DNA of 64,000 bases from Escherichia coli. GTDB lineage: Bacteria > Pseudomonadota > Gammaproteobacteria > Enterobacterales > Enterobacteriaceae. This document shows positions 25,301-27,540 of the stretch, piece by piece (positions within the stretch are counted from its first letter, which is position 1; each line of letters opens with the position of its first letter). The position numbers are program-made. The DNA is taken from the NCBI RefSeq assembly GCF_041248615.1, contig NZ_CP158426.1; one strand, written 5' to 3'.

Positions 25301-27540
25301 TCACGGCTTTGCTGGCTTAAGCCCTTCTCCATGCGATCGCTGATATTGCCCAGCGCCAGCACGCAGGCCACCGCCAGGCTTAGCGCCAGCCAGACAATTA
25401 ATAGCGACGGCGAGCGCCATTCGCGCCAGAACCAACGTGCAATCATGCTTCCTCCTGCAACTGCCCGTTCACCAGCCGTAAGCAGCGGTCGCAGCGTGCC
25501 GCCAGTTGCAGGTCGTGGGTCACCATAATCAACGTGGTGCCATGTTCACGGTTGAGGGAAAACAGCAGGTCGGCAATTTTATCGCCCGTCTGGCGGTCAA
25601 GGTTGCCGGTGGGTTCGTCGGCAAACAGCACATCAGGTCGACCGTTAAAGGCTCGTGCCAGCGCCACTCGTTGCTGTTCACCGCCGGAAAGCTGTGCCGG
25701 AAGATGATCCAGACGTTTACCCAGCCCTAACTGTTCGAGCAACGCTTTTGCCCCGTTACGACTTTCTGCGCTACTCTCACCACGCAGCAGCGCCGGAAGC
25801 TCGACGTTTTCCAGCGCGTTAAGGGTAGGAATTAACATAAATGACTGAAAAACAAAGCCGACGTGCTTCGCGCGCAACTTTGCCCGCGCTTCTTCGTCCA
25901 TATTATGTAGAGGTTGTCCCACCAGACTCACTTCGCCACTGCTGCCGTCATCCAGCCCGGCGAGGATCGCCAGCAAGGTTGACTTACCCGATCCCGACTC
26001 GCCCACCAGTGCGATGGTCTCGCCACGTTTGACAACCAGCTCAACTCCGGTGAGGATGGAGAGTTCATGCTCCCCCTGACCGACGGACTTCTTAAGATGA
26101 TGAACTTCAACAATGTTTTCCGCTGGCATTTGCCCTTCCTGTTCCTGGTCCTGTTAACCTTCCGTGCCGCCGCAGCGGACACGTTATTGATTCTGGGTGA
26201 TAGCCTGAGCGCCGGGTATCGAATGTCTGCCAGCGCGGCCTGGCCTGCCTTGTTGAATGATAAGTGGCAGAGTAAAACGTCGGTAGTCAATGCCAGCATC
26301 AGCGGCGACACCTCGCAACAAGGGCTGGCGCGCCTTCCGGCTCTGCTGAAACAGCATCAGCCGCGCTGGGTGCTGGTAGAACTGGGCGGCAATGACGGTT
26401 TGCGTGGTTTTCAGCCACAACAAACCGAGCAAACGCTGCGCCAGATTTTGCAGGATGTCAAAGCCGCCAACGCTGAACCATTGTTAATGCAAATACGTCT
26501 GCCTGCAAACTATGGTCGCCGTTATAATGAAGCCTTTAGCGCCATTTACCCCAAACTCGCCAAAGAGTTTGATGTTCCGCTGCTGCCCTTTTTTATGGAA
26601 GAGGTCTACCTCAAGCCACAATGGATGCAGGATGACGGTATTCATCCCAACCGCGACGCCCAGCCGTTTATTGCCGACTGGATGGCGAAGCAGTTGCAGC
26701 CTTTAGTAAATCATGACTCATAAAGCAACGGAGATCCTGACAGGTAAAGTTATGCAAAAATCGGTCTTAATTACCGGATGTTCCAGTGGAATTGGCCTGG
26801 AAAGCGCGCTCGAATTAAAACGCCAGGGTTTTCATGTGCTGGCAGGTTGCCGGAAACCGGATGATGTTGAGCGCATGAACAGCATGGGATTTACCGGCGT
26901 GTTGATCGATCTGGATTCACCAGAAAGTGTTGATCGCGCAGCCGACGAAGTGATCGCCCTGACCGATAATTGTCTGTATGGGATCTTTAACAATGCCGGA
27001 TTCGGCATGTATGGCCCCCTTTCCACCATCAGCCGTGCGCAGATGGAACAGCAGTTTTCTGCCAACTTTTTCGGCGCACACCAGCTCACCATGCGCCTGT
27101 TACCCGCGATGTTACCGCACGGTGAAGGGCGTATTGTGATGACCTCATCGGTGATGGGATTAATCTCCACGCCGGGTCGCGGCGCTTACGCAGCCAGTAA
27201 ATATGCGCTGGAGGCGTGGTCGGATGCGCTGCGCATGGAGCTACGCCACAGCGGAATTAAAGTCAGCCTGATCGAACCCGGTCCCATTCGTACTCGCTTC
27301 ACCGACAACGTCAACCAGACGCAAAGTGATAAACCTGTCGAAAATCCCGGCATCGCCGCCCGCTTTACGTTGGGGCCGGAAGCGGTGGTCGACAAAGTGC
27401 GCCATGCTTTTATTAGCGAGAAACCGAAGATGCGCTATCCGGTAACGCTGGTGACCTGGGCAGTAATGGTGCTTAAGCGCCTGCTGCCGGGGCGCGTGAT
27501 GGACAAAATATTGCAGGGGTGAGTTGAAGCGCGCGCTTAA

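What the first reader, a model, noticed from the sequence alone, without database searches (positions are those of the whole stretch)
26097..26129. Divergent tesA and ybbA overlap at their 5' ends on opposite strands
The tesA start (26097, plus strand) lies 33 bp inside the ybbA coding start (26129, minus strand), so the first 11 codons of each gene are encoded antisense to the other. This forces promoter and 5'-UTR overlap and possible transcriptional interference between a lipid-handling thioesterase and an ABC transporter; I believe the arrangement is conserved in E. coli.
Basis: seen in the sequence. Interest (0 to 1): 0.25.

Follow-up and report, generated by a model that had tools for sequence, protein, structure and literature searches.

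The report
Head-to-head tesA/ybbA start-codon overlap
Two E. coli genes that point away from each other, and whose proteins work together as one lipid-handling machine, really do share their first 30-33 bases on opposite strands; this is genuine and conserved, but it is already in the reference annotation and in the 2025 literature.

Summary
ybbA (25443-26129, minus) and tesA (plus, ending 26723) overlap head-to-head with their codons in exact antisense register. The overlap is 33 bp with the K-12 start (ATG 26097) and 30 bp with the RefSeq start (ATG 26100).

Across 72 distinct Enterobacteriaceae sequences, ATG 26100 and the ybbA ATG never change. ATG 26097 is ACG in 15 of them. The only start that would avoid overlap (TTG 26130) is TGG or CTG in 9, has no Shine-Dalgarno, and would strip the signal peptide of its charged N-region.

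Third-codon-position diversity falls from about 0.44 to about 0.055 inside the overlap for both genes, as expected for dual coding. It stays low through ybbA codons 11-35, where an invariant TTGACA-17-RAGGAT looks like the tesA promoter. The ybbA Shine-Dalgarno is the antisense of tesA signal-peptide codons.

In 8 of 8 informative lineages outside the Enterobacterales the two genes are still divergent, with spacing from an 8-bp overlap to a 55-bp gap.

This is not new. NC_000913.3 annotates it. McAndrew et al. 2025 note the overlapping operons of the YbbAP-TesA complex. ExcludonFinder 2025 lists tesA-ybbA as a divergent excludon. Any regulatory effect of the overlap is untested. Interest is low.

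The parts
26100..26129 (.). Core dual-coding overlap (30 bp): tesA codons 1-10 counted from the conserved ATG, antisense to ybbA codons 1-10. With the extra E. coli ATG at 26097 it is 33 bp (26097-26129).
   Evidence: Third-position diversity is 0.054 (ybbA) and 0.059 (tesA) against a background of 0.44-0.45. 26116-26129 is invariant in 72 sequences.
26097..26723 (+). tesA CDS (K-12 start 26097, 208 aa; RefSeq and conserved start 26100, 207 aa). Periplasmic SGNH thioesterase I / protease I / lysophospholipase L1.
   Evidence: NCBIfam NF007819 scores 410 bits against a cutoff of 270. It matches PDB chains 1IVN and 9GE8_T from Ala27 on.
26097..26174 (+). tesA signal-peptide coding region (MMNFNNVFRWH / LPFLFLVLLTF / RAAA, cleaved before ADTLL). 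Its N-region is the part that overlaps ybbA.
   Evidence: Solved mature chains start at query residue 26 of the 207-aa form. The N-terminal sequence is conserved in homologues.
25443..26129 (-). ybbA CDS, 228 aa, the ATPase of the type VII ABC transporter YbbAP.
   Evidence: NF007879 scores 478.8 bits against a cutoff of 336 and aligns 1-228 of 228. PDB 9GE6-9GE8 contain the same sequence from Met1. ATG 26129 is the first start after a stop.
23032..25446 (-). ybbP CDS, 804 aa, the permease. Its start overlaps the ybbA stop by 4 bp (25443-25446).
   Evidence: NF041854 scores 1459 bits; coordinates.
26136..26141 (-). ybbA Shine-Dalgarno (AGGAAG, 5 nt before the ATG), written as the antisense of the tesA codons Phe-Leu.
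   Evidence: Anti-SD duplex of -7.0 kcal/mol. tesA third positions 26138 and 26141 are frozen. tesA codons 11-20 have third-position diversity 0.279 (p = 0.002).
26074..26096 (+). Nearly invariant block just upstream of the tesA start, inside ybbA codons 12-19. Inferred to be the tesA 5' UTR and translation-initiation region, with only a weak Shine-Dalgarno.
   Evidence: 7 of 8 ybbA third positions here have diversity <=0.13. The anti-SD duplex is only -3.2 kcal/mol.
26029..26057 (+). Candidate sigma-70 promoter for tesA inside ybbA codons 25-34: -35 TTGACA (26029-26034), 17-bp spacer, -10 GAGGAT (26052-26057). The start site is predicted near 26064. This is inferred, not mapped.
   Evidence: It is the best position-weight-matrix score in the region at 11.4, against about 7 sites >10 per 20 kb of one strand. 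The hexamers are invariant, including 4-fold degenerate ybbA sites. The pattern is at a fixed position in 80 of 81 family loci plus L082 and L095 and is unique in the window. The stricter built-in scan found nothing.
26713..27522 (+). ybbO (SDR aldehyde reductase), downstream of tesA in the same direction. The annotated start is 26713; the real start is probably 26752.

Best explanation
This is a genuine, evolutionarily fixed head-to-head overlap of two protein-coding genes, tesA and ybbA, which head two divergent operons (tesA-ybbO and ybbA-ybbP). Their products assemble into one envelope machine, the YbbAP-TesA lipid hydrolase and ABC transporter complex.

tesA translation starts at ATG 26100, with the adjacent ATG 26097 also available in E. 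coli. ybbA starts at ATG 26129. So 30-33 bp encode both the N-region of the TesA signal peptide and the short tail of YbbA that precedes the first strand of its ABC domain. These are the least constrained parts of both proteins.

Because there is no intergenic DNA, each gene's expression signals are written in the other's coding sequence. The ybbA Shine-Dalgarno lies in the tesA signal-peptide codons. The tesA leader, and probably its sigma-70 promoter (TTGACA-17-RAGGAT, 26029-26057), lie in ybbA codons 11-35.

What is shown: the dual coding, the conservation, and the frozen synonymous sites. What is inferred: the promoter. It follows that the two mRNAs have complementary 5' ends covering both ribosome-binding sites, and that the two promoters fire towards each other. 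RNA-seq reported by others shows the transcript overlap. I infer that the Enterobacterales overlap is the extreme of an ancestral, very compact bidirectional control region, kept because the products are partners and then locked in by double constraint. Any interference between the two genes is probably a side effect that keeps both expressed at low levels, not a dedicated switch.
For: Sequence and annotation.

Start of tesA: ATG 26100 is invariant in 72 distinct sequences; 26097 is ACG in 15; 26067 varies as ATG/GTG/CTG/TTG; codon 12 (26130) is TGG or CTG in 9. The MNF(N/K)xVFRWH N-terminus is retained in Erwiniaceae, with the same 30-bp overlap.

Start of ybbA: it is the only start codon between the upstream stop and the ABC domain, it is invariant, it has a good Shine-Dalgarno, and the cryo-EM construct begins at Met1.

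Dual constraint: third-position diversity is 0.054 and 0.059 in the overlap against 0.44-0.45 background. ybbA codons 11-35 give 0.213 (p = 7e-7). The Walker A codons (41-50) give 0.50, so amino-acid conservation alone does not freeze synonymous sites.

Promoter candidate.

Within E. coli, the 106-bp core is >=99% identical in 5414 of 5417 genomes, whereas the 801-bp region reaches that in only 998 of 5418.

Deep conservation of tight divergent spacing: Vibrio 2-bp overlap, L086 0 bp, Wenzhouxiangella 8-bp overlap, L096 2-bp overlap, the P0194 locus 2-bp overlap, and gaps of 17, 25 and 52-55 bp elsewhere. Other divergent pairs in this neighbourhood are 145-366 bp apart.

Literature: the complex and the 'partially overlapping operons' (PMC12646458); the divergent excludon list (PMC12288877).
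Against: No experimental start-site data support either start. INRI-seq and the Ribo-RET column of its Table S2 show zero signal at both annotated starts, and no alternative site is listed (PMC9825163). tesA has only a weak Shine-Dalgarno at 26097/26100 (-3.2 kcal/mol). The frozen synonymous sites in ybbA codons 1-10 could partly reflect the usual constraint on the start of any mRNA instead of tesA coding. The promoter is a consensus match with a poor -10 (3 of 6), and the stricter scan found nothing. No convincing ybbA promoter was found, and tesA codons 21-45 show no extra constraint. I found no mapped transcription start sites in the supplements I could search. Mutual repression would be an odd design for proteins that must assemble together.
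Confidence: 0.82

Rival explanations
1. Annotation artefact: tesA actually starts at TTG 26130, directly abutting the ybbA ATG, so the coding sequences do not overlap. On this reading 26097-26129 is conserved only as ybbA coding sequence plus the tesA leader.
For: Several gene callers make this choice, giving 197-aa and 194-aa products that begin MPFLFL.... In distant taxa the two starts do abut or overlap by only 2 bp. No initiation signal has been detected at the annotated start. The Shine-Dalgarno at 26097/26100 is weak.
Against: Codon 12 is TGG (6) or CTG (3) in 9 of 72 sequences, so it cannot be the family-wide start. It has no Shine-Dalgarno (-1.5 kcal/mol at spacing 2). The resulting signal peptide would lack any N-region or positive charge, whereas every distant homologue has Lys or Arg within its first few residues. 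ATG 26100 is invariant, and ybbA synonymous sites opposite Phe, Arg and Trp of TesA never change.
Confidence: 0.06
2. The overlap is longer in E. coli: tesA translation starts at ATG 26067 (218-aa precursor), giving a 63-bp overlap.
For: The tesA ORF is open from 26067. That ATG has the best Shine-Dalgarno of all candidates (GGAG, -8.4 kcal/mol, spacing 6). Some callers output 218-220-aa products.
Against: The codon is ATG 38, GTG 25, CTG 7 and TTG 2 across the family, tracking His/Gln wobble in ybbA, so it is not conserved as a start. Neighbouring sites 26070 and 26073 vary freely. If the predicted promoter is real, the transcript would begin near 26064 and would lack that Shine-Dalgarno. A 36-residue signal peptide with an Asp in its N-region is atypical.
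Confidence: 0.05
3. The overlap is a purpose-built regulatory device, an excludon. Head-on transcription and pairing of the complementary 5' ends, cut by RNase III, would make tesA-ybbO and ybbA-ybbP expression mutually exclusive or tightly ratio-controlled.
For: tesA-ybbA appears in the MG1655 excludome, with transcript overlap in >=50% of RNA-seq samples. The complementary region necessarily covers both ribosome-binding sites. Tight divergent spacing is conserved across Gammaproteobacteria.
Against: No measurement of reciprocal expression exists for this pair in anything I could read. The products are partners in one complex, which argues for co-expression and not exclusion. The amount of overlap varies from a 33-bp overlap to a 55-bp gap among lineages, so the coding overlap itself is not the conserved feature.
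Confidence: 0.25

Closest known systems
Reference annotation of E. coli K-12 tesA (b0494) and ybbA (b0495), NC_000913.3
   Same: Identical feature. tesA 519139-519765 (-) and ybbA 519733-520419 (+) overlap by 33 bp. The finding's coordinates reproduce it.
   Different: RefSeq PGAP records of other strains place the tesA start 3 bp later, giving a 30-bp overlap. My comparison shows that this second ATG is the one conserved across the family.
YbbAP-TesA type VII ABC transporter / lipid hydrolase complex (McAndrew et al., PLoS Biol 2025, PMC12646458; PDB 9GE6-9GE8)
   Same: Same three proteins. [quoted passage not shown]
   Different: The paper uses the arrangement only as evidence of functional linkage. 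It does not analyse the start codons, the dual coding, or the embedded signals.
Divergent excludons (ExcludonFinder, NAR 2025, PMC12288877)
   Same: tesA-ybbA is one of 16 divergent pairs with overlapping transcripts in MG1655.
   Different: An excludon is defined by transcript overlap, and ExcludonFinder reports that such pairs have short intergenic distances. Here the coding sequences themselves overlap. Reciprocal regulation has not been shown for this pair.
Divergent (head-to-head) overlapping gene pairs in prokaryotes (Lillo & Krakauer 2007, PMC2174442)
   Same: This pair belongs to that class and has phase 123:321.
   Different: The class is rare: 331 of 14,958 overlaps in 58 genomes, about 2%, with 25-30% of those in this phase. 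From general knowledge, such overlaps are often suspected to be start-codon misannotations. This one survives a comparative test, whereas the neighbouring tesA/ybbO overlap probably does not.

Membership tests
TesA / thioesterase I (SGNH hydrolase; NCBIfam NF007819 equivalog) | Whole-protein score above the curated cutoff | tested here: met
   410.2 bits against a cutoff of 270.
TesA / thioesterase I (SGNH hydrolase; NCBIfam NF007819 equivalog) | N-terminal Sec signal peptide with a periplasmic mature protein starting ADTLL, and a GDSL catalytic block near the mature N-terminus | tested here: met
   N-region MMNFNNVFRWH, hydrophobic core LPFLFLVLLTF, then RAAA before ADTLLILGDSLSAGY. Solved chains 1IVN and 9GE8_T begin at that Ala. 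Signal-peptide cleavage itself comes from established knowledge and was not tested.
YbbA (type VII ABC transporter ATPase; NCBIfam NF007879 equivalog) | Whole-protein score above the cutoff, with full-length alignment from Met1 | tested here: met
   478.8 bits against a cutoff of 336, aligned 1-228 of 228. Matches PDB 9GE6_B residues 15-242.
YbbP (NCBIfam NF041854 equivalog) | Whole-protein score above the cutoff, and the gene lies immediately downstream of ybbA | tested here: met
   1459 bits against a cutoff of 999. There is a 4-bp ATGA junction at 25443-25446.
Head-to-head overlapping coding sequences | Both start codons lie inside the other gene's reading frame, and both starts are genuine | tested here: met
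   The geometry is shown. Both ATGs are invariant, synonymous sites are frozen, and the alternative starts are not conserved. Direct initiation-site evidence is lacking.
Divergent excludon | The divergent neighbours produce transcripts that overlap at their 5' ends | not testable with these tools
   No RNA data were available here. The pair is listed by ExcludonFinder from MG1655 RNA-seq. The overlap also follows logically, since each start codon lies within the other gene.
Divergent excludon | Reciprocal (mutually exclusive) effect on expression, or RNase III processing of the duplex | not tested
   I found no data for this pair.
Sigma-70 promoter (for tesA, 26029-26057) | -35 and -10 hexamers at 16-18 bp spacing, with a mapped start site downstream | tested here: inconclusive
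   The -35 is perfect (TTGACA), the spacer is 17 bp, and the -10 matches 3 of 6 (GAGGAT). The position-weight-matrix score is 11.4, and the site is conserved at ybbA synonymous positions. The strict scan found nothing, and I found no start-site data.

The most novel reading that the evidence does not exclude
The enterobacterial 30-33-bp overlap may be the extreme form of a module found across the Gammaproteobacteria. In this module tesA and ybbA-ybbP are kept start-to-start with essentially no spacer, every initiation signal of one gene is encoded in the other's coding sequence, and the resulting obligatory antisense pairing of the two 5' ends, which covers both ribosome-binding sites, is used to set the TesA:YbbAP ratio or to toggle between them.
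Probability: 0.2. Interest if true: 0.45.

Novelty: already known. Interest (0 to 1): 0.2.

Why it matters
Head-to-head coding overlaps are the rarest class of bacterial gene overlap and are often suspected to be start-codon errors. This is a clean case that survives comparative testing, and it sits at the control region of a recently characterised envelope machine, YbbAP-TesA.

In practice it means that tesA or ybbA deletions, the start-region edits used in fatty-acid engineering, and promoter swaps at this locus will unavoidably damage the partner gene's start, ribosome-binding site or promoter. It also points to a specific place to look for the still-unmapped tesA promoter. It does not reveal a new kind of system.

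Tried and rejected
- **Mapped transcription start sites.** I searched the held supplements of Rend-seq, Cappable-seq, ROSE and ExcludonFinder papers. They contained nothing for tesA or ybbA, or no files were held.
- **Translation-initiation evidence.** TRAINSPOTTER supplements had no entry. Ribo-RET preprint supplements were not held. INRI-seq Table S2 shows zero signal at both annotated starts, which is uninformative and not negative evidence.
- **Built-in promoter and terminator scan.** It found 0 promoter-like sites. My relaxed matrix scan found one good tesA-direction site but no credible ybbA-direction site.
- **Rfam scan of 25700-26900.** No family matched at E <= 1.
- **Inverted-repeat search for operator-like palindromes in 25950-26300.** None found.
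- **ATG 26067 as the start.** Considered because of its strong Shine-Dalgarno and rejected because the codon is not conserved.
- **TTG 26130 as the start.** Considered and rejected.
- **One distant locus (P0212).** Uninformative, because the contig ends 36 bp upstream of tesA.

Full report
**What is in the sequence.** The window is E. coli; 25700-26500 is 100% identical to strain 7/2 and is found in 5418 of 5426 complete genomes. On the minus strand an ORF runs 26129 to 25443 (228 aa, MPAENIVEVHHLKKSV...). On the plus strand an ORF is open from ATG 26067 and ends at 26723, with further in-frame ATGs at 26097 and 26100 (MMNFNNVFRWHLPFLFLVLLTFRAAAADTLL...).

NCBIfam identifies the two as the YbbA and TesA equivalogs, followed by YbbP and the SDR YbbO. 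K-12 NC_000913.3 annotates tesA 519139-519765 (-) and ybbA 519733-520419 (+), a 33-bp overlap. The finding's coordinates 26097-26129 reproduce this. RefSeq PGAP for strain 7/2 starts tesA at the second ATG (26100), giving 30 bp.

The two frames are in exact antisense register. The ybbA ATG is read as tesA His11, and the tesA ATGs are read as ybbA His10 and His11. This is phase 123:321.

**Are the two starts real?**

*ybbA.* ATG 26129 is the first start codon after an in-frame stop nine codons upstream (and read directly). There is no other ATG, GTG or TTG before the ABC domain, which aligns to LolD and MacB from residue 5-9 and to the YbbA family model from residue 1. It has an AGGAAG Shine-Dalgarno at 5-nt spacing (-7.0 kcal/mol). 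The ATG is invariant in 72 distinct Enterobacteriaceae sequences.

*tesA.* The mature protein in solved structures begins at Ala27, so the start must lie upstream of a signal peptide. I fetched 80 species-level Enterobacteriaceae loci and stacked the junction.
- ATG 26100 is invariant.
- ATG 26097 is ACG in 15 of 72 sequences.
- ATG 26067 is ATG, GTG, CTG or TTG, following His/Gln wobble in ybbA.
- Codon 12 (TTG 26130) is the only start that would avoid overlap, and some gene callers use it, giving 197-aa and 194-aa products. It is TGG in 6 and CTG in 3 sequences. It has no Shine-Dalgarno. It would leave a signal peptide with no N-region or positive charge, unlike every homologue examined.

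The conserved start is therefore 26100, and 26097 is an extra option in Escherichia and most relatives. Either way the overlap stands.

*Experimental evidence is missing.* INRI-seq Table S2 and its Ribo-RET column show zero signal at both annotated starts, and no alternative site is listed.

**Signature of dual coding.** I measured third-codon-position diversity across the 72 sequences.

| Region | Third-position diversity | Fisher p vs background |
|---|---|---|
| ybbA background (codons 36-125) | 0.44 | - |
| tesA background (codons 46-125) | 0.45 | - |
| ybbA codons 1-10 (overlap) | 0.054 | 6e-8 |
| tesA codons 1-10 (overlap) | 0.059 | 1.5e-6 |

Positions 26116-26129 are completely invariant. 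They include the synonymous sites of ybbA Pro2, Ala3 and Glu4, which are the first positions of tesA Trp, Arg and Phe. The Walker A codons of ybbA (41-50) keep a diversity of 0.50, so protein conservation alone does not freeze synonymous sites. Variation inside the overlap is confined to tesA codons 2-6 and ybbA codons 5-9, and it changes both proteins conservatively. Within E. coli, 26060-26165 is >=99% identical in 5414 of 5417 genomes, against 998 of 5418 for the 801-bp region.

**Embedded expression signals.** The ybbA Shine-Dalgarno is the antisense of the tesA codons Phe-Leu (26136-26141). tesA codons 11-20 show reduced synonymous diversity (0.279, p = 0.002), and codons 21-45 are at background.

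On the other side, constraint reaches much further. ybbA codons 11-35 (26025-26099) have third-position diversity 0.213 (p = 7e-7). Within this stretch, 26074-26096 is nearly invariant. I infer it is the tesA leader; its Shine-Dalgarno is weak at -3.2 kcal/mol.

Also within it, TTGACA (26029-34) - 17 bp - GAGGAT (26052-57) is the top-scoring promoter-like site in the region, at 11.4. Both hexamers are invariant even at 4-fold degenerate ybbA positions. The pattern sits at a fixed offset in 80 of 81 family loci plus two more distant Enterobacterales loci, and it is unique in the window. This is a prediction: the -10 is poor, and the stricter built-in scan found nothing.

I could not identify a ybbA promoter. 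No Rfam family or operator-like palindrome is present.

**Depth of conservation.** The same 30-33-bp overlap occurs in a 70%-identical metagenomic relative and in Winslowiella, an Erwiniaceae genus. I then looked at TesA relatives of 40-53% identity, taken from a representative search.

| Lineage / locus | Junction between tesA and the ABC ATPase gene |
|---|---|
| Vibrio | 2-bp overlap (CATG) |
| L086 | 0 bp (CATATG) |
| Wenzhouxiangella | 8-bp overlap |
| L096 | 2-bp overlap |
| P0194 locus | 2-bp overlap |
| L093 | 17-bp gap |
| L092 | 25-bp gap |
| Kangiellaceae | 52-55-bp gap |

In all 8 informative lineages tesA lies divergent from an ABC ATPase gene; where the contig extends further, an FtsX-family permease gene follows it. 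Other divergent pairs near this locus are 145-366 bp apart. So the conserved feature is a near-zero spacer. The Enterobacterales overlap corresponds to about seven extra codons in the TesA signal-peptide N-region.

**What is already known.** McAndrew et al. [quoted passage not shown] ExcludonFinder (PMC12288877) lists tesA-ybbA among the 16 divergent excludons of MG1655. Divergent overlaps are the rarest class, at 331 of 14,958 overlaps in 58 genomes, with 25-30% of them in this phase (PMC2174442).

**Interpretation.** I conclude with about 0.8 confidence that this is a real and conserved head-to-head dual-coding segment. It is tolerated because it falls on the least constrained ends of both proteins. 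It forces both genes' initiation signals into the partner's coding sequence. The complementary 5' mRNA ends and the face-to-face promoters follow from this geometry.

Whether the cell uses that for regulation is unknown. I rate a dedicated excludon-type switch at about 0.25, partly because the products must co-assemble. The rival starts TTG 26130 (no overlap) and ATG 26067 (63-bp overlap) are each rated about 0.05.

**Verdict.** The feature is already annotated and published, so interest is low (0.2). My additions are the conserved start at 26100, the synonymous-site evidence, a candidate tesA promoter, and the deep conservation of zero-spacer geometry.

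Noticed in passing
window 26713-26755: The annotated ybbO start (ATG 26713) creates an 11-bp overlap with the end of tesA. It is ACG in 33 of 67 ungapped Enterobacteriaceae loci. ATG 26752 (Met14, preceded by CAGGTAAAGTT) is invariant in 67 of 67. The NCBIfam SDR model PRK08017 covers only residues 14-268, and Winslowiella ybbO is called without an overlap. The real ybbO start is probably 26752, so the tesA/ybbO overlap is likely an annotation artefact.
   Followed up: partly
window 26058-26069: ATG 26067 is in frame with tesA and carries the strongest Shine-Dalgarno of the locus (GGAG, -8.4 kcal/mol, spacing 6). However, the codon is not conserved (ATG, GTG, CTG or TTG), and it lies at about the predicted tesA transcript 5' end. 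A minor Escherichia-specific or leaderless initiation cannot be excluded.
   Followed up: partly
window 25443-25446: The ybbA stop and the ybbP start overlap by 4 bp (ATGA), the usual translational-coupling junction.
   Followed up: no
window 22320-23031: Only about 700 bp separate ybbP from mnmH here. K-12 has rhsD and its neighbours at this position, and strain 7/2 has an RHS core gene plus IS1. This window's strain therefore lacks the RHS element at this locus.
   Followed up: no
window 35911-60023: A 6924-aa ORF (39249-60023, minus strand) matches the BapA-related adhesin SiiEA of strain 7/2. It is followed by genes for a type I secretion ATPase/permease (37083-39245) and a HlyD-family adaptor (35911-37086), next to cueR.
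   Followed up: no
E. coli genome collection (matches to window 25700-26500 and 26060-26165): Two of the roughly 5420 matching places are on plasmids and not on chromosomes.
   Followed up: no
K-12 519733 and 519765 (= window 26129 and 26097): In INRI-seq Table S2, neither the tesA nor the ybbA annotated start shows any ribosome footprint in five in-vitro replicates or in the Ribo-RET comparison column, while ybbP does in the in-vitro replicates (10.7-28.0 RPF; Ribo-RET 0). Synthetic-transcript abundance is low for both, at 20 and 28 CPM.
   Followed up: partly
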